Assembly: GCA_036374435.1 (NCBI GenBank)
Contig: DASUTU010000057.1
Location: forward strand, 1 to 63,957
From: Actinomycetota bacterium
Lineage (GTDB): Bacteria; Actinomycetota; UBA4738; HRBIN12
DNA length: 63,957 bases
Direction of reading: 5' to 3'
The notes below the pieces were generated by a model that worked only from the letters and a program-made list of their open reading frames with translations, ran no database searches and was not told the DNA's origin. The number at the start of each line of letters is the position of its first letter. The stretch's first letter is position 1. A program made the position numbers and the translations under genes. Shown here in pieces: positions 24,597 to 45,760 of the stretch.

Positions 24597-25436
24597 ATGA
24601 AGTCGGTGCGCCGCCTCCCGCTCCTGCTTGCCCTCGTCCTCGTGCTCGCGTCCTGCCAGGACGGGGCCTCCCCCGATCGCCCCAGCCGTCCAGGCCGCGC
24701 GCAGGGCACGGCGACGCCCGAGCCGGACTCCCCCGCCCCGACCGGGACCCCCACCAGGCCGCAGGGCCCCCCGTCGGCGCCGGGGCCGGACGTGAACGTC
24801 CCCGACGACGCCCCGACGAGCCTGAGCGACCCCGAGGACCTGGCCAGGATCCCCGAGGACCTCCCGACGCTGATCGAGGGCAGCGGGAACATCCAGGTCT
24901 TCGTGCCGCCGGACGCCTTCGTCACCGACGCCGTGGTCCGGGCCAGGCCGGACGACCCGCTCGACCTGGTGGCCCTGACGTGGCGACGGGGCACCGATCC
25001 GCTGGCGGCGGAGACGGGGTTCGTGTTGTGGCAGCGGTTCGCCGACAACCCGCCGTGGCGCGCGACCTACGCCTTCACGAACCAGCCACGGCGCGAGGTC
25101 CTCGGCATCCGGCTGTCCGCGGGCGACGTCACCGGCGACGGCATCCCGGACGTCGTCACGTTCGAGGAGCGGGGCGGCACCGGCGCCTGCGGCACCTGGA
25201 AGACCCTCGCCGTCGCAGACGGCGGCGCCGAGCAGATCCTGAAGCGCCAAACGTGTGACGCCGCGCTCCACGTTCGCGACGGGTTCCTGGAGCTCCAGCA
25301 GGCCGTGTACGGTCCCGACGACCCCCACTGCTGCCCCCGAGGCCACCGGTTCACGACGCTCGAGTGGGACGGCAGTCGCTTCGTCAAGACCGACAGCCGG
25401 TTCGAGGAACAGCCGGAACTCGACGAGGACGAGTAG
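24597..25436 (+). CDS. Putative lipoprotein with a Pro-rich linker
   Basis: MKSVRRLPLLLALVLVLASC lipobox; DVTGDGIPD motif; DDPHCCP motif. Confidence 0.7.
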   Translation: MKSVRRLPLLLALVLVLASCQDGASPDRPSRPGRAQGTATPEPDSPAPTGTPTRPQGPPSAPGPDVNVPDDAPTSLSDPEDLARIPEDLPTLIEGSGNIQVFVPPDAFVTDAVVRARPDDPLDLVALTWRRGTDPLAAETGFVLWQRFADNPPWRATYAFTNQPRREVLGIRLSAGDVTGDGIPDVVTFEERGGTGACGTWKTLAVADGGAEQILKRQTCDAALHVRDGFLELQQAVYGPDDPHCCPRGHRFTTLEWDGSRFVKTDSRFEEQPELDEDE

Positions 25437-25469
25437 CCGCCGCGCCGGCGGCGCCCTCACCAGGCGCCC

Positions 25470-28049
25470 TCACCTCACGACGCGGACCGAGCTCCCCCGG
25501 GGCGACTTCTCGATCTCGACGCGGGCGGGGAGCCGGATGGCCAGCTCCTGGACGTGGGTGATGACCCCGACCATGCGCCCGTCGCCGCCGAGCTGCTCGA
25601 TGGCCTCGACCACGACCTCGAGCGACTCGTGGTCGAGGGTGCCGAATCCTTCGTCGAGGAACAGCGAGTCCAGCCGGGCCTTCTCGGTCACGGCGAGCGA
25701 CCGCACCTGCTCCGAGAGGGCGAGCGCGAGCGCGAGCGACGCGAGGAACGTCTCCCCGCCCGAGAGCGTCCTGGCGCTCCGGCGCTCCTCGCCGTTCCAC
25801 GTGTCGACGACGGAGAACTCGTCGTCGGCGTATTCGAGGCGGTACCGCCCCTGGGACAACGCCGACAGGCGCTCCGAGCCCGCCGCGGCGAGCACCTGGA
25901 GGGCCTCCACCTGGAGGAACGCGATCAGCCGGTCCTGACGGAGCTCGCGGGCCAGGGCGTCGAAGACCTCGGCGCGCGTCCGGGCCCCGGTGATCTGCTC
26001 CACGATCGCCTCCGCGTTGGCGAGCTTCTCGGCGGCGGCCGCGGCCCGGTCGGCGGCCGTGGCGGCCTCGCGCGCCGCGGCGGTCCGGGTGGCCGACGCG
26101 AGCTCCAGGACCTCGGCCACGGTGAGGCCGTCGAGGTCAGCATCGACGAACCCATCGAGGTGGCCGGCGGCCTCGAGCGCCACCTCTCGCTCGCCGGCGA
26201 TACGGTCCGCCGCGGCCCGGGCGAGGGTGTCGGCCGACCGCTCGAACAGGGACGCCAGCGCTCCGGACGCAACCGCGAGCGCGGCGGCGTCCTCCTTCCC
26301 GGTGAGCGGCGGCGGCGCGTCCTCGACGCCGTCGGCGAGCGACCGCGCACGCTCCAGCAGCCCCGCGACGGCGAGCCCGCCGATCCGCCCGCGCGCCTCG
26401 GCGAGCTCGGTGGCGAGCCCGTCCCGCTCGCGTTCGGCCTCGGCGAGCTCGCGCCGTAGCTCCTCGAGGTCCCCCTCCGCCTCCCCCTGGGCCGCCTCGA
26501 GCTCCTCCAGCCGCTCGAGGCGTTCGTCGATGGTCGCGAGCGGGTCCGCCGGGAGCTTCGGCCCGAGGGCCGTGGCCAGGTCGGCCTCGAGCCGCGCCAC
26601 GTCGGTCCGCGCCCTGGCCGCCGCCTTCGCGCACCGCTCGGCCTCCTGTTCGGCCGCCTCCACGGCCGCGGCGGCTCGGTCACGGGCGCGTTCGGCCTCG
26701 GCGAGCGCCTGCTGGGCCCTCTTCGCCGCGGCGCTCGCCCGGTCGAGCGCGACCCGCGCCCGGTCCAGCGAGGGCGCCTTCGGCGCCTTGGGGAGCGTGG
26801 CGATCTTCGCCCCGCAGACGGGGCAGGCGTCGCCGACGTGCACCCCGGCGCGCACCGCGGCGACGAGGTTCGCGTGTTGCGCCTCGTCCAGCGCGGACCG
26901 GGCGCCCTCGAACGCGTCGATCGCCGCCTCGGCGTCGGCCACGGCGACGGTGACGGCCGCCTCGGTCGCCGCCGAGGCGGCCCGCAGCGCCGGGATGGCC
27001 TGCTCCGCGGCGGCGAGCTCCTCCTCGGCCTCGGCGAGCGCGACACGGGCGTCGACGAACGTCTCCGCCTTCACGCGCACGGCGACCAGCTCGACCGTGC
27101 GCCCCCAGGCCGACTCGGCCTTCTCGCGGGCTGCCGTCGCCTTCGCCGCGGCCCGCTCCCGCGCGACGACGGCCTTCTTCCGCTCGTCGACCTCGGCCGC
27201 GATCGAGGCGGTCCGGGCCGCGAGGTCCCCGAGCGCGTCCGCCACCCCGGCCGCGACGCCCCGCGCGTCGCGGAGGTCGCGTTCGCACGCCTCCAGGTCG
27301 GCGATGGCGCGGGCGCTCTCCGACCAGCGGTCGTGCACCTCCCGCACGGTCGTCTCGGCTGCCGCCAGCGCCTCCTCCCGGTGCGCCGCCGCCTTCGCCA
27401 CCGCCTCCGCCTCGGCCACCGCGTCCGGGGAGACGCCCGCGTATTCGGTCTCGAGCACGGACGACTTCGCCCGGACGTCCGCCTCGGCCTGACGTTTGAC
27501 CTCCCCGGCCCGTCTGCCCAGGCGCTCGAACAGCTCGAGCCCGAGGAGATCGGTGAGGATGTCGCGCCGCTGCCGGGCCTCACCCACGAGGAACTCGGCG
27601 AAGCGTCCCTGGGGCAACAGGACCGTCCGGGTGAAGGCCTCGTAGTCGAGGCCGACGGCGCGTTCGATCATCTGGTTGGCCGTGCCGACCCGGTCGGCCC
27701 CCTCGCCGGCCTGCACCCACCCGTCGCCTTCGCCGCGCTCCAGCAGTACCTGCGTCGCGCCTTTCGCCGAGGTCCGGCGCGCCACGCGGTATCGCGCGTC
27801 GTCCACGGCGAACTCGAAGATCACCGCCATGGTCGGCTGGCCCTGGCTGATGAGCTGGTGCAGGCCCTGCTTGCCGATGCGCTCGACCCGCCCGAAGAGG
27901 GCGTACGTGACCGCGTCCAGGATCGACGACTTGCCCGAGCCGGTCGGGCCGCTGATCGCGAACAGATCGAGCTCGTGCCCCTCGAAGTCGATGGTCTGGG
28001 TGTCGCGGTAGGCGGTGAAGCTCTTGACCTCGAGCCGGATCGGTCTCAT
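25470..28049 (-). CDS. sbcC: SbcC/Rad50 SMC-family ATPase
   Basis: Walker A GPTGSGKS, Q-loop LPQG, Zn-hook CPVCG within a long coiled coil, LSGGE signature, LFLDEGFGTLD, ITH. Confidence 0.92.
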   Translation of the reverse strand: MRPIRLEVKSFTAYRDTQTIDFEGHELDLFAISGPTGSGKSSILDAVTYALFGRVERIGKQGLHQLISQGQPTMAVIFEFAVDDARYRVARRTSAKGATQVLLERGEGDGWVQAGEGADRVGTANQMIERAVGLDYEAFTRTVLLPQGRFAEFLVGEARQRRDILTDLLGLELFERLGRRAGEVKRQAEADVRAKSSVLETEYAGVSPDAVAEAEAVAKAAAHREEALAAAETTVREVHDRWSESARAIADLEACERDLRDARGVAAGVADALGDLAARTASIAAEVDERKKAVVARERAAAKATAAREKAESAWGRTVELVAVRVKAETFVDARVALAEAEEELAAAEQAIPALRAASAATEAAVTVAVADAEAAIDAFEGARSALDEAQHANLVAAVRAGVHVGDACPVCGAKIATLPKAPKAPSLDRARVALDRASAAAKRAQQALAEAERARDRAAAAVEAAEQEAERCAKAAARARTDVARLEADLATALGPKLPADPLATIDERLERLEELEAAQGEAEGDLEELRRELAEAERERDGLATELAEARGRIGGLAVAGLLERARSLADGVEDAPPPLTGKEDAAALAVASGALASLFERSADTLARAAADRIAGEREVALEAAGHLDGFVDADLDGLTVAEVLELASATRTAAAREAATAADRAAAAAEKLANAEAIVEQITGARTRAEVFDALARELRQDRLIAFLQVEALQVLAAAGSERLSALSQGRYRLEYADDEFSVVDTWNGEERRSARTLSGGETFLASLALALALSEQVRSLAVTEKARLDSLFLDEGFGTLDHESLEVVVEAIEQLGGDGRMVGVITHVQELAIRLPARVEIEKSPRGSSVRVVR

Positions 28050-29218
28050 GCGGCGCCCTCCGACTCGAGCTCGAGCACCTCGTCGAACGCCTCGAGCAGG
28101 GCCTCCGGCGGCGGCGCGCCGTGGTGGGCCTCGTGGTACGCCACGAACTGGTCGCGCGGGGCGAGCGAGGACAGCGGCTCGCCGCCGCCGCCGTCTCCCT
28201 CGCCCCGCTCGTAGACCAGGTGCACGTCGAGGACGTTCGGCAGCTCGTCGCGGATCCGGTCGGCGATGCCCGGGACCGGCCCCTCGGACTGGACGAACAC
28301 GCGGAGCCAGGCATCGCCCGCGCCGGCCCCCTGGGCCAGGACCTCGTCGAGGGTGCCCCGGAGGTCCTTCAGCGGCCGCCCGCTCGACAGCCGCACCTCG
28401 GTCACCCTGGCCGGCTTCCCGGGTGCGGCGTCGACGACGGTGACGCTCTTGCGCTGGCCGGCCTCGCCGAAGTCGAGCTGGAGCAGCGACCCGGCGAACC
28501 GGGCCGGCGCCGGCGACCCCTTGACGGCCTGCGGCAGGTGCACGTGGCCGAGCGCGACGTACGCCGCCTCGGCCGGCAGCCGCGACGGAGGGACCGCGTA
28601 CGCGATCCCGATCGTGAGCTCGCGTTCGCCGCCGCCCGGCGTCACGAGCGCGCCGTCGGTGAACAGATGGCCGAGCAGGATCGGGATCCGCCCCGGCGTG
28701 AACCCGGACGCCATCGCGCCGAGGAGCTCCCCCATCCCCTGCGCGTAACCCTGATACCAGGCCTCGCCGGCGTCGAACAGGGCCGCGGCGTCGCCGAACC
28801 GGCGCTCGGGCACGAAGGGGACGGCGGCGATCTCGGCCTCGTGCTCCCCATCGCGGCTCGGGACGACGACCACGCCGCCGGCGTCCGGCGGCGCCACCTT
28901 CGGCACGATCTCGATCCCCAGCGGCCGCAGGACCTTCCCGAACGCCGCCAACCGCAGCGGCGAGTCGTGGTTGCCCGGGATCGCCACCACGCGGATCCCG
29001 GCGTCGTGCAGCCGCAGGAACGCGTCGAACACGAGGCCGTCGGCCTCCGGCGCGGGGGCGCGATGTTCGTACAGGTCGCCGGCGATCAGGATGCAGTCGA
29101 CGCCTTCGTCGACGGCGATGCCCACCGCCTCGTCCAGTGCCGCGGAGAACTCCTCGGCCCGAGAGCGCCCGCGGATGGTCTTGCCGACGTGCCAGTCTCC
29201 GGTATGCAGGAACCGCAC
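28046..29218 (-). CDS. sbcD: SbcD/Mre11 metallophosphoesterase nuclease
   Basis: FLHTGDWHVGK, AGDLYE, PGNHDS, GHLF, LGHVH motifs. Confidence 0.93.
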   Translation of the reverse strand: MRFLHTGDWHVGKTIRGRSRAEEFSAALDEAVGIAVDEGVDCILIAGDLYEHRAPAPEADGLVFDAFLRLHDAGIRVVAIPGNHDSPLRLAAFGKVLRPLGIEIVPKVAPPDAGGVVVVPSRDGEHEAEIAAVPFVPERRFGDAAALFDAGEAWYQGYAQGMGELLGAMASGFTPGRIPILLGHLFTDGALVTPGGGERELTIGIAYAVPPSRLPAEAAYVALGHVHLPQAVKGSPAPARFAGSLLQLDFGEAGQRKSVTVVDAAPGKPARVTEVRLSSGRPLKDLRGTLDEVLAQGAGAGDAWLRVFVQSEGPVPGIADRIRDELPNVLDVHLVYERGEGDGGGGEPLSSLAPRDQFVAYHEAHHGAPPPEALLEAFDEVLELESEGAA

Positions 29219-30909
29219 TACTCGCCCTCGAAGCGGTCGAACACCTTGGCACCCTCGCCGGCCGGCTCGGCCTCGTCGGCGCGGGTCGCCCACGACGGGA
29301 ACGGGAAGCGGATCTGCAGCGGCACCGGGATATGCGGCTGCTGGAGGATCATGGATCCGGGTTTGAGGATCGACGCCCGCGCCCGGGTGACGGCCGGGAG
29401 GAAGCCGTATTCGCTGCGCGCGGCCTCGGCCGTGTCGAGCCGCCCCACCACCCGGAACGCGCTGTTCGAGATCACGCGCCGCTCGACCTCGGAGGCGGTC
29501 TGCTCGGCGCCCACGAGGATCATGCCGAGCGAACGGCCGCGCTCGGCCACGTCGAGGAGGACCTCCTTGATGGGGCTCCAGCCGTCGCGCGGGGCGTAGC
29601 GGTTCAGCTCGTCCAGGACCAGGAAGGCGAGCGGCTCCCGGCGGCCCATCCGCTCCTTGTGCTCGAACAGCCGCTTGATCACCACGCCGGTCACGAACCG
29701 CTTCGCGCGGTCGTGCAGGTTGTGGATGTCCACCACCGTGACCTGGTTCGCCTCCCAGTCGATCCGGTGGCGCTCGGGATGTTCGGCCTCCCGGCCCACG
29801 ATGAGATGCCCCATGCGGAAGCGCGCCGCGTCGAGGCGGCGCACGAACGCGCTCACGGTGGCGTCGCTGACCCGTCCGCGCCACGGGGAGCCGTCGGTGT
29901 CCACCTCGGTCGCGACGAGGTCGCACAGCTGGCCGAAGTCGGACACGGGGGAGCCCGCGAACGTCACGGTGGCGTCGTTGTCGGGGTCGTCCTCGCACTC
30001 GCGGTCGAGCGCGGCCTCGACCCGCGCCACGAGGTCGGCGATCTGCGAGCGCTCGTCGTCCGCCTCGGCGAACATGAACCGCAGGAACCGCTCGCGGACG
30101 AACTCGCGCACGGTCCACGAATAGGCCGTGACCCCCTCGGAACGGCCCTCGACCTGCGGGATGGCCCGGCCGCCGGCGTCGGGTCGGATCGGCGCCCAGA
30201 GGCCCACGCTCTCGAACGGTCCCGCGGGCAACCCGAGCCGGGCGTAGTCCTCGCGGTCGTCTTGGGTGAGTCGGGCGTTCGGCCGGTCGAGCCACATCAG
30301 GTCCTCGCCCTTGACGTTGAAGACGAGGGCCTTCGTGTTCGGCGCGTACCGTCCGAGCACGTCCGAGTGGAACAAGGCGTAGAGCAGGAACAGGGCGTAG
30401 GTGGTCTTCGTCGCGACGCCGGAGACCCCGCTGATGTTGACGTGGGCGCCGCGGGAGCCGTCGAGGAAGTCCAGGTCGAGGAACACGGGCTCACCGTCGC
30501 GGGTGAGCCCGGCGGCGACGCGCCGCTCCATCTGGTCGAAGTACAAGGCCTCGTCGCGGTCCTTGCCCCGTGCCCGCACCGCCGGCAGGCCGGGCATGGG
30601 CGGCACGAAGACCTCGGGCTCGAACCGGGTGGCGACGACCTGCGCGGCCACGGCCGTGTCGACGGGGAGGACCCCCCGGTCGACCAGGAAGACGTCGGTG
30701 TCGAACTGCACCCCCTCGTGCCGGGCCCGGACGTCCTGGACGATGCCGGAGATCCGAAGCGATCCGCGCCCGGGAACCTCGGTCTCGACGATCACGGCGT
30801 CGTCGAGCTGGAGGTACGCGTCCGGCGCGACGCCCACCCAGAACGTCAGCGGCGTGGCGTCTTCGGTGCCGAGGACCATGCCGACCGGTTCGGAGGTCCC
30901 CTCGATCAC
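29218..30909 (-). CDS. herA: HerA-family DNA translocase/helicase (HAS barrel plus ATPase)
   Basis: N-terminal HAS-like GMVLGT...LQLDDAV; atypical Walker A HVNISGVSGVATKT; Walker B FLVLDELNRYAP; ERGRSLG...AEQ motif. Confidence 0.88.
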   Translation of the reverse strand: MIEGTSEPVGMVLGTEDATPLTFWVGVAPDAYLQLDDAVIVETEVPGRGSLRISGIVQDVRARHEGVQFDTDVFLVDRGVLPVDTAVAAQVVATRFEPEVFVPPMPGLPAVRARGKDRDEALYFDQMERRVAAGLTRDGEPVFLDLDFLDGSRGAHVNISGVSGVATKTTYALFLLYALFHSDVLGRYAPNTKALVFNVKGEDLMWLDRPNARLTQDDREDYARLGLPAGPFESVGLWAPIRPDAGGRAIPQVEGRSEGVTAYSWTVREFVRERFLRFMFAEADDERSQIADLVARVEAALDRECEDDPDNDATVTFAGSPVSDFGQLCDLVATEVDTDGSPWRGRVSDATVSAFVRRLDAARFRMGHLIVGREAEHPERHRIDWEANQVTVVDIHNLHDRAKRFVTGVVIKRLFEHKERMGRREPLAFLVLDELNRYAPRDGWSPIKEVLLDVAERGRSLGMILVGAEQTASEVERRVISNSAFRVVGRLDTAEAARSEYGFLPAVTRARASILKPGSMILQQPHIPVPLQIRFPFPSWATRADEAEPAGEGAKVFDRFEGE

Positions 30910-30910
30910 G

Positions 30911-31867
30911 TCAGCCTCCCCCGGCGCTCAGCCAGGCCAGCAGCGCCCGGCGGATCAACCCTCGATGGCCCATCCGGTGCTGCAACCATCCCTCGAGCCC
31001 GCCCACCGGCGCGAGGTTCTGCGGGTACCGCGGATCGCTGTGCCGGCCGGCGAACCCGGGCAGCAGCGCGCTCACCCGGTCGGCCAGCGAGCGTGCCTGC
31101 TCAAGCCCCGCGCCGGCACGCACCTCGCATCGGATCAGCCCGGCGTGATCGTGCCAGGCCGGGCGCGAGGGCACCAGCCGCGTGTACCAGGCATACCGTT
31201 CGGACGCCCGGCCCTCGTAGGCGAGCGCGAACAGCGGCGTCCGCTCCCCCGGAGCGAGCCGAGCGAGCAGGGCATCGTGCCCCTCGTCGAGGTAGGCGCG
31301 CGCGAACCGCTTCACCACGCCGATCACCGGCGAGACGGTTTCTTCGCGGAGGCTCTTCAGGGGGCCGTCGGCCAGCACAAGGCAGCCGGAGTTCGCCGCC
31401 ATCCCGGCCGCGAGCCCGGCCTCTTCGTCGCGCATCTTCGACTGGAGGCCGATGAGCGGGGTGTCGGGATCGGTCCCGGCCTCGCTGCGCGGTTCGTACC
31501 GCAGCCGGTGCGGGCCGGCGTCGATCTCCACCCGGAGCGGTCGCACCCCGCCGCCGACCACCACCGAGCGGCCGACCGCATGGTCGGCGAACACCGCGCG
31601 GCCGTCGCAGCGCACCGCCCCCACCGCCCACGAGCCGAACAGCCCCGCCGCCCGCCGGCCGTCGTCGTCGGCGAGCACCCGGAGCTCGACCCGGCGGACG
31701 CCGTCCACGAACCACACCGGGCACGTCGGGACGTCGGCGGAGACGATGGGACGGCTCCAGTCGTCGGTCTCCACGCCCGGGTCCGCGCTCGCCGGGGTCT
31801 CGTCCAACCTGGCTTCGAAGCCCATGCCGTGATCCGGCGTCCACGGATCGGCGCGGAGCGCAACCAC
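30911..31867 (-). CDS. nurA: NurA-like 5'-3' nuclease (bacterial type)
   Basis: ADPW start, FVDGVRR and LADGPL acidic motifs, PQNLAPVGGLE...L...MG C-terminal motif; immediately upstream of herA; TACCCT 6 nt before GTG 31867. Confidence 0.75.
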   Translation of the reverse strand: MVALRADPWTPDHGMGFEARLDETPASADPGVETDDWSRPIVSADVPTCPVWFVDGVRRVELRVLADDDGRRAAGLFGSWAVGAVRCDGRAVFADHAVGRSVVVGGGVRPLRVEIDAGPHRLRYEPRSEAGTDPDTPLIGLQSKMRDEEAGLAAGMAANSGCLVLADGPLKSLREETVSPVIGVVKRFARAYLDEGHDALLARLAPGERTPLFALAYEGRASERYAWYTRLVPSRPAWHDHAGLIRCEVRAGAGLEQARSLADRVSALLPGFAGRHSDPRYPQNLAPVGGLEGWLQHRMGHRGLIRRALLAWLSAGGG

Positions 31868-32075
31868 GGCCGAAGGGTACCGGACGCTTCCGACGCCCCC
31901 GGGCACGTGCGGCGAACAGGCCTGCGACCTGGGAGAACGCGGAGTCGGGCGTTCCGGCTAGTCAATCCGGGCCACTTCCCCCAACGGGGGGACTACGCCG
32001 CTCGTGTGTCGGCGCCGATACGACCCCTGAAGCCACGGACGACCCTGCACGCCCCGGCTCGAGGGGGACCACGCG

Positions 32076-32950
32076 ATGGCATGGTTGGCACGTCGGGAGC
32101 GACGCCCCGTCTGGGGAACGCTCGCCGTGCTCCCCGTGGCCGACATCGCGGCCAGCGCGTGGTTCGCCGTCCGCGATCGCGCCGAGGCCGTCGAGGCCGC
32201 CCTCGGCCCGCGCCGAGCTCATCGCCCGCACCGAGCTGGCTCCCCTTCTCCAGCCGCGCGACCTCAACTCCCCGGCGACCGGTGATCGGGCCGGACAGCT
32301 CTCGGCGGCCATCGGCGAGTCGATCATCACCTCCGGCCCGGTGGACGGGGTCCGGTTGTTCTCGCCCCTGGGCCGGATCCTCTACGCCGAGCAGTCGAAG
32401 GTGATGGGCACGCGGCCCTCGTACCTTCGCGATCTCACGTTCCGGGTGGCGGGCGGGGACGTCCAGAGGCTCGTCCGGGGCGGGAAGCTCCTGACGTACG
32501 TCCCGGTGTGGCTGACCCCCGGCGGTCCGGTCGCGGTGGCGGAGCTGTCCCAGCCGCTCGGATCGCTCCAGTCCGAGGCCATCGGGCCGTGCTCGAGCAG
32601 CAACGTGAGGCTGCCGAACGGAAGGTCCACATCGTCGAAGAGAACTTCCACGCCCTCCAGAAGCGGCTGAAGGAGGCCCTGGCCCAGGTCCAGGAGCTCG
32701 AGGCCCGCCTGGCCGTGAACGAGAAGCCCCACGACACGCACGACGGCGACCGCCGGCGACGCGCGATCAGATCCGCGACCAGGCTCAGCGGCTCCACGAG
32801 GCCGAGCTCGAGAACAACGCCCTGCGGCAGCGCGAGAGCTACCAGGAACGAGCGGCCGCCCTGGCCAGGGCGCTGGCCCATGCGGATGCCGAGGAGCGGC
32901 GGGATCGGATCCGGGGCAGGCGGCACCGCATGGCCCGAGCCGTTCACGTC
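32076..32950 (+). pseudogene. Fragmented membrane-anchored sensor/coiled-coil gene
   Basis: Coherent protein-like segments in successive frames: TM (VWGTLAVLPVADIAASAWF), sensor-like GVRLFSPLGRILY...PVAVAELSQP, and coiled coils (HALQKRLKEALAQVQELEARL; RLHEAELENNALRQRE). Confidence 0.55.
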
Positions 32951-32964
32951 TCCGGGCCGAGCGG

Positions 32965-34122
32965 TTATCGGAGCGCCTGGAGGAGCTCGCGTGCGATCAC
33001 GACCCGCTGGATCTGGTTCGTCCCCTCGTAGATCTGCGTGACCTTCGCGTCGCGCATCAGGCGCTCGACCGGGTACTCGCGCACGTAGCCGTACCCGCCG
33101 AGCACCTGCACGGCGTCCGTGGTGATCCGCATGGCCGCGTCGGAGGCGAAACACTTCGCCACGCTGGAGAAGTAGGTCATCCGTTCGTCGCCCGCGTCGC
33201 ACAGGGCGAGCGCCTTGTACACGAGGAGGCGGGACGCCTCGAGCTGCATCGCCATGTCGGCGAGCATGAACGAGACGCCCTGGAACTCGGAGATCGGCTT
33301 GCCGAACTGCTCGCGCTCGCCGGCGTACCGCGCCGCGAAGTCGAACGCCCCCTGGGCGATGCCGAGGGCCTGGGCGCCGATCAGCGGGCGCGAGTAGTCG
33401 AGCGTCTCCAGCGCGATGCGGAAGCCCTGCCCCTCCTCCCCGATCAGCCGGTCGCCCGGCAGGCGAGCCCCCGAGAGGATCACCTCGCGCGTCGGGGAAC
33501 CTCGGATGCCCATCTTGTCTTCCTTCCGCCCGAACGAGACGCCCGGGTCGTCCTTCATGGCGAGGAACGCGCTGATGCCTTTGGCCCGTTCGGCCGGATC
33601 GCGCGTGGCGAAGACCACGTAGGCGTGGCTCACCCCGGCGCCGGTGATGAACCGCTTCGTGCCGTCGAGCACGAACTCATCGCCGTCGCGCGCGTACCGC
33701 GTCGACAGCGCCGCGGCGTCCGACCCGGCCCCGGGCTCGGTGAGCGCGTACGACATCAAGATGTCCCCGCGCACGATGCCTTCGATCATGCTCCGGCGCT
33801 GCTCCTCGGTCCCGGCCAGGGCGAGCGGGATCACGCCGAGCTTGCTCACCGCCGGCGCGAGCGCGAGCCCCGCGGCCACGCGCGACAGCTCCTCCACCAG
33901 GACGCCGAACGCGAGCGACCCGCCGCCCGATCCGCCGTACTCCTCGGGGTACCCCACCCCTGTGAGCTCGTTGTCGACGAGGACCCGGAACAGGTCCTCG
34001 GGCCATTCGTCGGTGCGATCGATCTCGTCGGCGCGAGGAGCGATCTTCTCTTCGGCGATCTGCCGGACCAGGGCTCGGAACTCCTCGAGCTCCGGGGGCA
34101 GCGCGAAGCGCTCCAGGTCCAT
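32965..34122 (-). CDS. Acyl-CoA dehydrogenase (short/branched-chain type)
   Basis: YALTEPGAGSDAA, GTKRFIT, KMGIRGSPT, RPLIGAQALGIA, REQFGKPI, LGGYGYVREYPVERLMRDAKVTQIYEGTNQIQR. Confidence 0.95.
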   Translation of the reverse strand: MDLERFALPPELEEFRALVRQIAEEKIAPRADEIDRTDEWPEDLFRVLVDNELTGVGYPEEYGGSGGGSLAFGVLVEELSRVAAGLALAPAVSKLGVIPLALAGTEEQRRSMIEGIVRGDILMSYALTEPGAGSDAAALSTRYARDGDEFVLDGTKRFITGAGVSHAYVVFATRDPAERAKGISAFLAMKDDPGVSFGRKEDKMGIRGSPTREVILSGARLPGDRLIGEEGQGFRIALETLDYSRPLIGAQALGIAQGAFDFAARYAGEREQFGKPISEFQGVSFMLADMAMQLEASRLLVYKALALCDAGDERMTYFSSVAKCFASDAAMRITTDAVQVLGGYGYVREYPVERLMRDAKVTQIYEGTNQIQRVVIARELLQALR

Positions 34123-40965: not shown

Positions 40966-41916
40966 CTATCCCGGTGCCGGAGACGGCGACAAAGCCGAGG
41001 GGCACGTCGCCACCCGTGGGCACCACGTGCAAAACGGGCCGGGCCGCAACGCAAGCGGATGCCCTGCCTGGGCCGCGGCCGCGGCGCGAACCGCATCGAT
41101 CACGCGATCGGCGGCGCGACCGAGCACCCGGGTGTCCACGTCTTCGGCCTGCCACTGGCCCGAGTCGAGGTACAACGTGGCCACCCGGTACGGCGGAACC
41201 CCGAACCGCAGCGCGAGCACGAGCGCGTAGAACCGCATGTCCTCGGCGTGCTCCGGCCAGGCCCGCCCGGTCTTCAGGTCGATCGCCAGCCGCGTGGCCC
41301 GATTGGGCTCCGCCGGCGAGGCCGCACCGAGCACGAGGTCGAGCTGTCCCGAGAGCACCAGCGCGCCGCCGAGCAGCTCGGCCCGGACGTGCCACTCGGT
41401 GGAGGGGGCGAGATGGCGCCGGAGCGGACGGAGCGGCGGGAGCGTGGCCCGGAACAGCTCGAGGGTCTTGGCCGCCTCCATCAACGTCTCGTCCCGCCGG
41501 AGCGGATCGAGGGCGTCCCAGTAGGCCCGGAAGCCGTCGTCTTCGATGAGACGGTCGGCCGCTTCGGCCACCAGCCCGTGGGCGTCCCGGTCCGCGCGGC
41601 CCGCCACCTCGAGCTCGATGGACTTGTGCGCGAGGCGTCCGGCGGCGAACCTGGGCGTGAACGAGAAGGGAGCGCGTTCCCCGGACCGGACGGCGTCGAA
41701 CAACCCCGGGCAGCGGCCCAGGTCGTTCAGGTTGGACTTGCCCAGCCACAGCGGCTCGGCCAGCTCGAACCCGCGGGCGGCGTCTTCGATCCGGTCGCGG
41801 ATCTTCGGCACCAGGTCGCCCGGCACCAGCGGCCGCTCGCCCGTCCCGATCAGCCCCTCGAGCGTGCGGCGCTGCGGGGCCGTCAGCTCGACCGCGCGCT
41901 CGAGGGTGGCATCCAC
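40966..41916 (-). CDS. PD-(D/E)XK (RecB/AddB-like) nuclease with 4-Cys Fe-S staple
   Basis: GQLDLV...IDLKTG...MRFYA nuclease motifs; N-terminal GRCP plus C-terminal CTWCPRVATC. Confidence 0.82.
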   Translation of the reverse strand: MDATLERAVELTAPQRRTLEGLIGTGERPLVPGDLVPKIRDRIEDAARGFELAEPLWLGKSNLNDLGRCPGLFDAVRSGERAPFSFTPRFAAGRLAHKSIELEVAGRADRDAHGLVAEAADRLIEDDGFRAYWDALDPLRRDETLMEAAKTLELFRATLPPLRPLRRHLAPSTEWHVRAELLGGALVLSGQLDLVLGAASPAEPNRATRLAIDLKTGRAWPEHAEDMRFYALVLALRFGVPPYRVATLYLDSGQWQAEDVDTRVLGRAADRVIDAVRAAAAAQAGHPLALRPGPFCTWCPRVATCPSALSPSPAPG

Positions 41917-45630: not shown

Positions 45631-45760
45631 GTCCCGACAAAGGCAAACCGCCGGTGACGGCGGGACGCAAAGCTCCGGGCCTCCCCGGCTGCACCCGGGG
45701 GCACGGGGGCACTGGAACGCAGCCCCCGGCCCAGCAGGAGGTGGCCGAGCCGCCGAAGGA
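45631..45760 (+). ncRNA. c-di-GMP-I (GEMM-I) riboswitch
   Basis: AAAGGCAAA-CCGCCG[GTGA]CGGCGG-GACGCAAAGCTCCGGGCCTCC...GGAGGTGGCCGAGCCGCCGAAGG matches the GEMM-I core including the GNRA tetraloop. Confidence 0.88.

What the first reader, a model, noticed from the sequence alone, without database searches (positions are those of the whole stretch)
25470..31867. Complete archaeal-style nurA-herA-mre11(sbcD)-rad50(sbcC) operon in an actinobacterium-like genome
The four genes are co-oriented and abutting or overlapping (gaps of 1 nt or less, shared stop/start bases), behind a leaderless promoter, with catalytic motifs intact (seen). This quartet is the canonical double-strand-break end-resection module of hyperthermophilic archaea. 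In bacteria, NurA-HerA has been studied mainly in Deinococcus and Thermus (established). HerA here has an unusual Walker A (GVSGVATKT). Inference: a bacterial four-component resection machine that may replace or complement RecBCD/AdnAB, or process foreign linear DNA.
Basis: partly seen in the sequence, partly recalled or inferred. Interest (0 to 1): 0.75.

Follow-up and report, generated by a model that had tools for sequence, protein, structure and literature searches.

The report
Bacterial nurA-herA-sbcD-sbcC repair operon
Four overlapping genes in this soil actinobacterium encode a DNA-break-trimming set (NurA nuclease, HerA motor, SbcD/SbcC) behind a DNA-damage-type promoter; the set is real and intact, but it is made of bacterial-type proteins, is common in Actinomycetota and has been noted before, so it is under-appreciated rather than new.

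Summary
On the minus strand, nurA (30911-31867), herA (29218-30909), sbcD (28046-29218) and sbcC (25470-28049) abut or overlap, and all catalytic motifs are intact. HerA and NurA are close relatives of the solved Deinococcus radiodurans HerA-NurA complex (E 1.9e-143 and 4.4e-23). A confident NurA model (pLDDT 90) matches that structure. SbcD and SbcC are bacterial-type.

"Archaeal-style" is true only by analogy. The proteins belong to bacterial clades and the gene order differs from the archaeal one. The "unusual" Walker A (GVSGVATKT) is the norm for bacterial HerA.

The linkage is conserved. In a sample of 401 Actinomycetota genomes, 88 other genomes have this herA, and 73 of them have sbcD directly downstream. 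The same linkage occurs in Chloroflexota. It was noted in Oceanithermus in 2017.

New here: nurA is preceded by a RecA-NDp/PafBC-type box (cGTCGgaa-8 nt-TACCCT) ending 6 nt before the start codon. This box is conserved in 63 of 73 related loci and is shared with uvrB, lhr, polA, tag and ligase genes in the same genome.

The genome also has AdnAB, Ku and LigD but no RecC, so the module complements rather than replaces other pathways. The most likely role is a damage-induced end-processing machine. It is a new member of a known kind.

The parts
31874..31895 (-). RecA-NDp/PafBC-type promoter box: cGTCGgaa (31895-31888), an 8-nt spacer, then the -10 hexamer TACCCT (31879-31874). The hexamer ends 6 nt before the nurA GTG, which implies a leaderless mRNA.
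   Evidence: The sequence is shown. GTC-N12-TANNNT is present in 63 of 73 related loci, and in 56 of those 63 the -10 ends 6-8 nt from the start codon. It is also present in 8 of 9 distant nurA-first genomes and 7 of 11 herA-first genomes. The published consensus is tTGTCRgtg-8nt-TAnnnT (PMC5656591).
30911..31867 (-). nurA: bacterial-type NurA nuclease, 318 aa, RNase H-like fold, with catalytic D55/E149/D167 and the pin-adjacent W9.
   Evidence: 7f6d_H at E 4.4e-23 and 1zup at 8e-6. Pfam NurA at 21.6 bits against a cut-off of 21. Invariant residues come from alignment A1. AF2 pLDDT is 90.3. Foldseek top hits are 7f6d_G (TM 0.70) and 1zup.
29218..30909 (-). herA: bacterial-type HerA hexameric ATPase/translocase, 563 aa. 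Walker A GVSGVATKT (161-169), catalytic-Glu motif VKGED (199), Walker B VLDELN (431).
   Evidence: 7f6d_B at E 1.9e-143, covering residues 6-552. Motifs are conserved in 75-76 of 76 relatives. There is no Pfam or NCBIfam hit.
28046..29218 (-). sbcD: Mre11-family nuclease subunit, 390 aa, with phosphoesterase motifs I-V intact.
   Evidence: TIGR00619 at 158 bits (cut-off 77.65), Metallophos and SbcD_C. E. coli SbcD structures at E 4e-29. Motifs.
25470..28049 (-). sbcC: Rad50-family ABC ATPase, 859 aa, with a CPVCG zinc hook at residue 409, a short coiled coil, and intact Walker A/B, Q-loop, signature and H-loop motifs.
   Evidence: AAA_23, SMC_N and SbcC_Walker_B. TIGR00618 at 272 bits, below its 478.5 cut-off. 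E. coli SbcC 6s6v_C at E 7e-44. Motifs.

Best explanation
This is one operon, transcribed from a leaderless, PafBC/RecA-NDp-type DNA-damage promoter. It encodes the bacterial counterpart of the archaeal Mre11-Rad50-HerA-NurA end-processing set.

The inferred mechanism rests on the characterised E. coli SbcCD and D. radiodurans NurA-HerA enzymes:
1. SbcCD recognises broken, hairpin-capped or protein-blocked DNA ends and cleans them in an ATP-dependent way.
2. The HerA hexamer then loads on the duplex end and pumps it into the NurA dimer.
3. The NurA pin splits the strands and its RNase H-like sites degrade mainly the 5' strand, leaving a 3' tail for RecA.

Translational coupling makes the four proteins together. 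The module works alongside AdnAB and Ku/LigD in this genome and does not replace them.

Shown here: gene identities, intact motifs, the NurA fold, conserved linkage, the conserved promoter box, and the shared box on other repair genes. Inferred: transcription as one unit, induction by damage through PafBC, physical or functional coupling of SbcCD to NurA-HerA, and the substrate.
For: Identities and motifs. NurA fold.

Linkage:
- Of 80 related loci, 78 have nurA directly upstream of herA, 59 have sbcD directly downstream, and 11 more have sbcD after a 1.1-3.9 kb insert.
- In 401 sampled Actinomycetota genomes, 88 others carry the herA orthologue. Of these, 73 have sbcD within 400 nt downstream and 9 within 3-14 kb.
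- A second gene order, herA-sbcD-sbcC-nurA, keeps the same four genes together (L080).

Promoter:
- cGTCGgaa-N8-TACCCT lies 6 nt before the GTG.
- It is conserved down to 33-39% NurA identity and across both gene orders.
- In the same genome the box with a leaderless start precedes uvrB, tag, rmuC, an ATP-dependent ligase, a uvrD-like gene, lhr, polA, comM-like, UPF0102 and a PD-(D/E)XK nuclease.
- There are 25 hits, against 0-7 for permuted cores.
- A pafB/pafC-like tandem WYL pair sits beside tatA/tatC.
- PafBC acts through RecA-NDp (PMC6789036), and sbcD is reported in the M. smegmatis PafBC regulon (PMC11348249).

Context: the flanks are syntenic housekeeping genes, thiolase-ACAD ... lipoprotein-thioesterase-aconitase. 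Each of the four genes is single-copy in the genome.
Against: - There is no expression data, no mapped transcription start and no biochemistry for this or any actinobacterial copy.
- In D. radiodurans and T. thermophilus, deleting nurA/herA gives only modest or even improved damage resistance (PMC9960219), so a central repair role is not established for bacterial NurA-HerA.
- The first base of the box core is C rather than T in this window.
- About 14% of related loci have unrelated genes inserted between herA and sbcD, and 5 lack sbcD nearby, so co-transcription is not obligatory.
- The Chloroflexota copies have a different upstream box.
- AdnAB is present, so the module is not needed for resection as such.
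Confidence: 0.75

Rival explanations
1. An anti-phage or anti-plasmid system. On this reading a HerA-type ATPase with a NurA-like nuclease (as in TdpAB, Sir2-HerA or DUF4297-HerA), helped by SbcCD, degrades invading linear DNA.
For: HerA ATPases are common in defence systems. PADLOC gives weak hits: HerA to mad8 at 5e-8 and to HerA models at 1e-5 to 3e-7, and SbcC to mad3 at 9e-24 and LmuB at 1e-22. The NurA model also matches the NurA-like subunit of TdpAB (8wfd_G, E 8e-5). A role in destroying foreign DNA has been speculated for archaeal HerA-NurA (PMC3326311).
Against: The PADLOC hits are generic P-loop/SMC similarities, far weaker than the match to DrHerA (1.9e-143). NurA has no PADLOC hit. 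The neighbours are housekeeping genes in conserved synteny. There are no mobile-element genes nearby. The promoter box is shared with uvrB, lhr, polA and tag. The linked SbcCD is the genome's only SbcCD.
Confidence: 0.08
2. Co-regulated but mechanistically separate. On this reading SbcCD acts alone on hairpins, palindromes and converging forks. NurA-HerA acts separately, for example with RecJ as in Deinococcus or in DNA translocation. The linkage then reflects shared damage regulation only.
For: In Deinococcus and Thermus the two pairs are unlinked, and HerA partners with RecJ (PMC4663267). In 11 of 80 loci unrelated genes split nurA-herA from sbcDC, and 5 lack sbcD nearby. No actinobacterial protein interaction data exist.
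Against: There is tight translational coupling here, with 1-nt and 4-nt overlaps. The four genes stay together under two different gene orders. In 83% of herA-bearing Actinomycetota genomes sbcD immediately follows herA. In archaea Mre11 binds HerA (PMC2288612, from its abstract).
Confidence: 0.15
3. A recent horizontal import of the archaeal herA-mre11-rad50-nurA operon.
For: The same four functions are clustered as in thermophilic archaea. The literature on Thermus speaks of an archaeal origin for hepA (PMC5448004).
Against: The best relatives are bacterial. GC content, about 0.73-0.77 against about 0.70-0.73 in the rest of the window, and GC3 resemble the rest of the window. HerA identity runs from 84-91% in some genomes of the same family and order down to 47-76% elsewhere in the phylum, though some genomes of the same family carry a copy only about 49% identical. 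The flanks are syntenic. The gene order differs.
Confidence: 0.02

Closest known systems
Deinococcus radiodurans NurA-HerA complex (PDB 7F6D, 7WRW/7WRX; PMC9960219)
   Same: The sequences are full-length homologues: HerA at E 1.9e-143 and NurA at 4.4e-23. They share the deviant Walker A G[IV]SGVATKT, Walker B DE, the NurA RNase H-like fold, the N-terminal Trp and pin region, and the nurA-herA order with near-abutting genes.
   Different: Here the pair is fused into one operon with sbcD-sbcC and carries a PafBC-type promoter. In D. radiodurans sbcCD lies elsewhere, and any link to it is described as still "to be uncovered" (PMC4663267). The pin segment here is 3 residues longer. This host has AdnAB, unlike Deinococcus, which lacks RecBCD/AddAB.
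Oceanithermus profundus hepA(herA) locus with sbcD and sbcC downstream (Blesa et al. 2017, PMC5448004)
   Same: A bacterial nurA/herA pair with bacterial SbcD and SbcC encoded directly downstream. The authors read it as an architecture like the archaeal double-strand-break repair system.
   Different: That case is a single observation in Thermales, with no survey and no regulatory analysis. Here the arrangement is shown to be the rule in herA-bearing Actinomycetota, to occur in Chloroflexota, and to sit behind a damage-type promoter.
Archaeal herA-mre11-rad50-nurA operon (Sulfolobus, Pyrococcus)
   Same: The same four functions sit in one operon, and the same division of labour is proposed: Mre11-Rad50 does the initial end processing and HerA-NurA does the 5' resection.
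   Different: The gene order differs. According to PMC9960219, bacterial and archaeal NurA-HerA share under 20% identity, and no archaeal HerA was detectable by sequence here. That paper describes the NurA dimerisation and the HerA contacts as different from the archaeal ones, and the pin motif as bacterial only. It is essential in Sulfolobus islandicus (PMC4351679); essentiality was not examined here.
E. coli SbcCD (PDB 6S6V)
   Same: SbcD and SbcC have all nuclease and ABC-ATPase motifs and the CxxC zinc hook. sbcD-sbcC overlap as ATGA.
   Different: SbcC is about 190 residues shorter (859 against 1048 aa), so the coiled coil is shorter. It scores below the TIGR00618 cut-off. It is always downstream of herA in this lineage.
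Mycobacterial PafBC / RecA-NDp DNA-damage regulon
   Same: The box GTCR-N11-TANNNT has the published spacing, is followed by a leaderless start, and occurs on the usual regulon members (lhr, uvrD-like, uvrB, tag) in the same genome. pafBC-like genes are present.
   Different: Membership of nurA-herA in this regulon has not been reported in the papers I could read. Only sbcD in M. smegmatis is mentioned (PMC11348249). This herA is rare in the genus of M. frederiksbergense, found in 2 of 61 genomes.

Membership tests
Bacterial NurA (DrNurA / TM1739 type) | RNase H-like NurA fold over the whole protein | tested here: met
   The AF2 model has pLDDT 90.3 and pTM 0.88. Foldseek gives 7f6d_G at E 1.4e-19 with TM 0.70, and 1zup_A at E 1e-14 with TM 0.66-0.71.
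Bacterial NurA (DrNurA / TM1739 type) | Conserved acidic catalytic residues (the D...E...D of the RNase H-like core) and the C-terminal PQN motif | tested here: met
   D55, E149, D167, Q283 and N284 are invariant in 56 sequences. They align to VDG, the acidic helix, DGP and PQNL of DrNurA. The mapping onto the published catalytic residues is by alignment only.
Bacterial NurA (DrNurA / TM1739 type) | N-terminal pin-like motif with a conserved Trp (W8 in DrNurA) | tested here: met
   DPW at residues 7-9 is invariant. The following loop keeps the Phe but is 3 residues longer than in DrNurA. The motif is described in PMC9960219.
Bacterial NurA (DrNurA / TM1739 type) | Mn2+-dependent, HerA- and ATP-stimulated nuclease activity | not testable with these tools
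   Needs purified protein.
Bacterial HerA (FtsK-HerA superfamily, DrHerA type) | Full-length homology to a characterised HerA (HAS barrel, RecA-like domain, helix bundle) | tested here: met
   7f6d_B at E 1.9e-143, with query residues 6-298 and 316-552 aligned.
Bacterial HerA (FtsK-HerA superfamily, DrHerA type) | Walker A Lys/Thr, Walker B Asp-Glu and the ASCE catalytic acid | tested here: met
   GVSGVATKT, VLDELN and VKGED are present and conserved in 75-76 of 76 relatives. They are equivalent to K175/T176 and D487/E488 of DrHerA.
Bacterial HerA (FtsK-HerA superfamily, DrHerA type) | Match to the curated HerA/DUF87 profile models | tested here: not met
   There is no Pfam hit even at E<=10 and no NCBIfam hit. 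Relatives in the protein database also carry no Pfam domain. I read this as a blind spot of the models, given the 1.9e-143 match to DrHerA.
SbcCD / Mre11-Rad50 | SbcD phosphoesterase motifs I-V and a family model above its cut-off | tested here: met
   DWH, GDLYEH, GNHD, LGHLF and GHVH are present. TIGR00619 scores 158 bits against 77.65.
SbcCD / Mre11-Rad50 | SbcC ABC-ATPase motifs, coiled coil and CxxC zinc hook; family model above its cut-off | tested here: inconclusive
   All motifs and the CPVCG hook are present, and 6s6v_C matches at E 7e-44. TIGR00618 scores 272 bits, below its 478.5 cut-off, most likely because the coiled coil is short.
Archaeal herA-mre11-rad50-nurA operon | Four genes clustered and co-oriented | tested here: met
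Archaeal herA-mre11-rad50-nurA operon | Archaeal gene order and archaeal-clade proteins | tested here: not met
   The order here is nurA-herA-sbcD-sbcC. Archaeal Mre11/Rad50 equivalog models score 44-75 bits against cut-offs of 500-1087. No archaeal HerA chain is found at E<=1.
PafBC / RecA-NDp regulon | Promoter motif tTGTCRgtg-8 nt-TAnnnT upstream of the gene | tested here: met
   cGTCGgaa-GCGTCCGG-TACCCT is at 31895-31874. It is conserved in 63 of 73 loci and in distant genomes. The consensus is from PMC5656591. This window has C in place of the first T of TGTC.
PafBC / RecA-NDp regulon | pafB-pafC present in the genome, and the motif shared with known regulon-type genes | tested here: met
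   Tandem WYL genes lie next to tatA/tatC. The motif is on uvrB, lhr, a uvrD-like gene, tag, polA, a ligase gene and rmuC, with 25 hits against 0-7 for control cores.
PafBC / RecA-NDp regulon | PafBC-dependent induction after DNA damage | not testable with these tools
The organism is an uncultured MAG.
HerA-based anti-phage defence systems (PADLOC) | Significant match to a defence-system model set and location in a defence or mobile island | tested here: not met
   Only weak, generic ATPase hits were found, and none for NurA. The neighbours are housekeeping genes in conserved synteny.

The most novel reading that the evidence does not exclude
In Actinomycetota and Chloroflexota, SbcCD, HerA and NurA may form one physically coupled, damage-induced "resectosome". 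This would be a third bacterial double-strand-break end-resection pathway beside RecBCD/AddAB/AdnAB and RecJ-RecQ. In Actinomycetota it would be wired into the PafBC (RecA-independent) response. It would be the normal state of bacterial NurA-HerA, with the unlinked Deinococcus and Thermus versions as the exceptions.
Probability: 0.35. Interest if true: 0.6.

Novelty: new member of a known kind. Interest (0 to 1): 0.4.

Why it matters
The structural literature on bacterial NurA-HerA says the pair occurs "only in a few bacteria, such as Deinococcus-Thermus" and leaves its link to SbcCD open (PMC9960219, PMC4663267). In those models its mutant phenotypes are puzzlingly mild.

The comparative data here point the other way:
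- About one fifth of sampled Actinomycetota species carry the pair.
- It is nearly always in one operon with the cell's only SbcCD.
- It sits behind the promoter type that drives the main actinobacterial DNA-damage response.

This makes the SbcCD connection directly testable in bacteria. It points to better model organisms than Deinococcus. It also exposes an annotation gap: bacterial HerA has no Pfam or NCBIfam model and is named "ATP-binding protein" at NCBI.

All parts are known, and the arrangement has been seen before, in the literature once and many times in this scan. The value therefore lies in consolidation and not in surprise.

Tried and rejected
- The sigma-70 consensus scan found no promoter in 25000-32400, and the two terminator-like sites are within chance.
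- The GC-rich hairpin after the sbcC stop folds no better than shuffled sequence (z -0.78). No terminator is claimed.
- Rfam found no RNA element in or next to the operon.
- The 1.1-3.9 kb inserts between herA and sbcD in 11 relatives were checked for a hidden fifth component. They hold unrelated, mostly opposite-strand genes: a Ser/Thr kinase, a recurrent protein of about 260-290 aa that I did not identify, an aminotransferase and a transporter. I rejected the idea.
- No clean RecA-NDp box was found upstream of herA in Mycolicibacterium frederiksbergense L080.
- I tried to see whether M. smegmatis sbcD is herA-linked. This herA is in only 2 of 61 genomes of that genus, and the supplements of the regulon papers are not held. 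The question was left open.
- Iyer 2004, Constantinesco 2004 and Cheng 2015 are not held, so an earlier description of the bacterial linkage in those papers cannot be excluded.
- No phylogeny with archaeal sequences was built. The bacterial-clade assignment rests on profile and PDB scores.

Full report
OBSERVATION.
The window is about 72% G+C. It is contig C57 of a 2.8-Mb, 95%-complete genome in 172 contigs. Relatives are nearly all uncultured soil and groundwater Actinomycetota MAGs.

On the minus strand four ORFs follow each other:
- nurA, 30911-31867
- herA, 29218-30909
- sbcD, 28046-29218
- sbcC, 25470-28049

One base lies between the nurA stop and the herA GTG. The herA stop and the sbcD GTG share one base. 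sbcD and sbcC overlap as ATGA. herA, sbcD and sbcC each have a GGAGG or GAGGG 7-9 nt upstream, and nurA has none.

IDENTITIES.
SbcD hits TIGR00619 (158 bits against a cut-off of 77.65), Metallophos and SbcD_C. SbcC hits AAA_23, SMC_N and SbcC_Walker_B. Both score far better on bacterial SbcC/D models than on archaeal Mre11/Rad50 equivalogs, and both match the E. coli SbcCD structures.

HerA has no Pfam or NCBIfam hit at all, even at E<=10. It does align over residues 6-552 to D. radiodurans HerA (7f6d_B, E 1.9e-143).

NurA just passes Pfam NurA (21.6 bits against 21). It aligns to DrNurA (7f6d_H, 4.4e-23) and to Thermotoga TM1739. An AlphaFold2 model built from 56 homologues has pLDDT 90.3. 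Its best PDB matches are DrNurA (TM 0.70, E 1.4e-19) and TM1739. The fold test is passed.

MOTIFS.
All expected motifs are present and conserved in relatives:
- HerA: GVSGVATKT, VKGED, VLDELN.
- NurA: D55, E149, D167, PQN and the N-terminal DPW.
- SbcD: motifs I-V.
- SbcC: Walker A, Q-loop, CPVCG hook, LSGGE, Walker B, H-loop.

It is nevertheless G[IV]SG[VI]ATKT in 76 of 76 relatives and GISGVATKT in DrHerA. In DrHerA, K175 and T176 contact the nucleotide and Mg, and their mutation kills activity (PMC9960219). It is the clade's normal P-loop.

START AND PROMOTER.
The GTG at 31867 gives MVALRADPW, which matches the DrNurA N-terminus MRIRLDPW. That N-terminus includes the Trp next to the pin motif.

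Directly upstream lies cGTCGgaa-GCGTCCGG-TACCCT, followed by 6 nt and then the GTG. I anchored the upstream regions of related loci on the start codon:
- GTC-N12-TANNNT is present in 63 of 73 loci.
- In 56 of those 63, the -10 ends 6-8 nt from the start codon.
- It is kept in 8 of 9 much more distant genomes with NurA only 32-39% identical.
- It is upstream of herA in 7 of 11 genomes that lack nurA upstream of herA.

The spacing is exactly that of the published RecA-NDp consensus tTGTCRgtg-8nt-TAnnnT (PMC5656591). This is the motif through which the WYL regulator PafBC activates most actinobacterial DNA-damage genes (PMC6789036, PMC8223512).

In this genome the same box with a leaderless start precedes these genes:
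- uvrB
- tag
- rmuC
- an ATP-dependent DNA ligase
- a UvrD-like helicase
- lhr
- polA
- a ComM-like ATPase
- a UPF0102 nuclease
- a PD-(D/E)XK nuclease, which lies in this window at 41916

There are 25 such sites, against 0-7 when the GTC core is permuted. A tandem pair of WYL genes lies next to tatA/tatC and a proteasome subunit. From memory, this is the mycobacterial pafBC arrangement.

This is inference from sequence. No transcript data could be obtained.

LINKAGE.
Of 80 loci found with HerA:
- 78 have nurA immediately upstream.
- 59 have sbcD immediately downstream.
- 11 have sbcD-sbcC after a 1.1-3.9 kb insert of unrelated genes.
- 5 end at a contig edge.
- 5 lack sbcD in the available sequence.

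The set includes Chloroflexota (Limnocylindria, Chloroflexia), a Solirubrobacteraceae MAG and Mycolicibacterium frederiksbergense. In M. frederiksbergense the order is herA-sbcD-sbcC-nurA, the archaeal order.

I also surveyed an even sample of 401 Actinomycetota genomes (tally by hand from the two tables). 88 other genomes have the herA orthologue. Of these:
- 73 have sbcD starting within 400 nt downstream on the same strand.
- 9 have it within 3-14 kb.
- 2 have it elsewhere.
- 4 are cut by contig ends.

About 60% of all SbcD-bearing genomes in the sample have sbcD in such a cluster. Genomes with the cluster usually have no second SbcD. The own genome has one copy of each gene.

The flanks (thiolase-ACAD on one side, lipoprotein-thioesterase-aconitase on the other) are conserved in many relatives. 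The locus is therefore a stable chromosomal one and not an island.

OTHER END-PROCESSING PATHWAYS IN THE GENOME.
- A tandem AdnA/AdnB-like pair, each with UvrD helicase and PD-(D/E)XK domains, is on C22.
- Ku is present.
- Three LigD polymerase domains are present, one beside ku.
- No RecC is found.

The module therefore complements AdnAB and NHEJ.

WHAT IS KNOWN.
Bacterial NurA-HerA has been characterised structurally and biochemically in D. radiodurans (PMC9960219). Deletion phenotypes there and in Thermus are mild or even positive. That paper states the pair is present "only in a few bacteria". PMC4663267 leaves any connection to SbcCD open.

A review lists homologues in Cyanobacteria, Actinobacteria and Firmicutes (PMC8708640). 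Blesa et al. 2017 noted that in Oceanithermus profundus sbcD and sbcC lie downstream of hepA(herA), and read this as archaeal-like architecture (PMC5448004). sbcD is described as a PafBC-regulon gene in M. smegmatis (PMC11348249).

I found no paper describing the actinobacterial operon or its promoter. Three key older papers are not held.

Earlier notes of this scan report the same four-gene set in at least 170 genomes and reach the same reading. These are unchecked AI notes. My own surveys agree with them.

MECHANISM.
The most likely mechanism (confidence 0.75) has four steps:
1. DNA damage activates PafBC, which drives a leaderless nurA-herA-sbcD-sbcC transcript.
2. Coupled translation yields the four proteins together.
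3. SbcCD opens or cleans blocked or hairpin ends.
4. The HerA hexamer pumps the duplex into the NurA dimer, which splits the strands and degrades mainly the 5' strand, giving a 3' tail for RecA.

Shown here: identities, motifs, fold, linkage, promoter conservation and regulon context. Inferred: transcription unit, induction, protein coupling and substrate.

Rival explanations:
- Co-regulated but separate activities (0.15).
- Anti-phage or anti-plasmid defence (0.08). It has only weak generic PADLOC hits, housekeeping synteny and a repair-type promoter against it.
- A recent archaeal import (0.02).

VERDICT.
It is a new member of a known kind. The added value is the phylum-wide linkage statistics and the PafBC-type promoter. 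Interest 0.4.

Noticed in passing
window 31960-33041 (+): The gene divergent from nurA reads in two frames, 32083-32670 and 32508-33041. Part A has homologues at the same position in 16 related loci. In L001 parts A and B are in one frame, with about 150 nt more between them. This points to a frameshift or deletion (a pseudogene) or an assembly error in this MAG. The product is a coiled-coil protein with no family hit.
   Followed up: partly
window 40966-41916 (-): A 316-aa PD-(D/E)XK nuclease (Pfam PF12705) has a perfect RecA-NDp box, TGTCGGTG-N8-TACCAT, and a leaderless GTG. It is probably another member of the same damage regulon.
   Followed up: partly
own genome: C1:35079, C10:3521/3921, C29:2974, C60:13174, C72:3580, C96:7729, C128:26361, C137:2438: The predicted RecA-NDp/PafBC regulon of this genome includes uvrB, a UPF0102 nuclease, a ComM-like ATPase, tag, rmuC, an ATP-dependent ligase, a UvrD-like helicase, lhr and polA. 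All have the box 5-9 nt from a leaderless start.
   Followed up: partly
L060-L067 (Chloroflexia and Chloroflexota loci), 20-45 nt upstream of nurA: These copies lack the GTC-N12-TANNNT box. Most of them share TGGCACGG-N5-TTCGGGTAGGCT instead (L067 has a diverged version). The loci are close relatives of each other, so this conservation is weak evidence. The regulator is unknown.
   Followed up: no
L080 6872-14268 (Mycolicibacterium frederiksbergense): The same four genes occur in the archaeal order herA-sbcD-sbcC-nurA, with a longer SbcC of about 1135 aa. Only 2 of 61 genomes of that genus have this herA, which suggests sporadic acquisition.
   Followed up: partly
L042, L048, L056, L076: between herA and sbcD: A recurrent opposite-strand gene of about 260-290 aa sits just upstream of sbcD in several loci where the operon is split. 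I did not run it against any family library, so its identity is unknown.
   Followed up: no
window 29218-30909 and its relatives in the protein database: There is an annotation blind spot. The bacterial HerA clade (more than 7,400 clusters at E<=1e-30) has no Pfam or NCBIfam hit. NCBI names it "ATP-binding protein", while JGI names some copies "DNA helicase HerA-like ATPase".
   Followed up: yes
window 45632-45696 (+): A c-di-GMP-I riboswitch (Rfam RF01051, 41.1 bits) is the only Rfam hit in the window.
   Followed up: no
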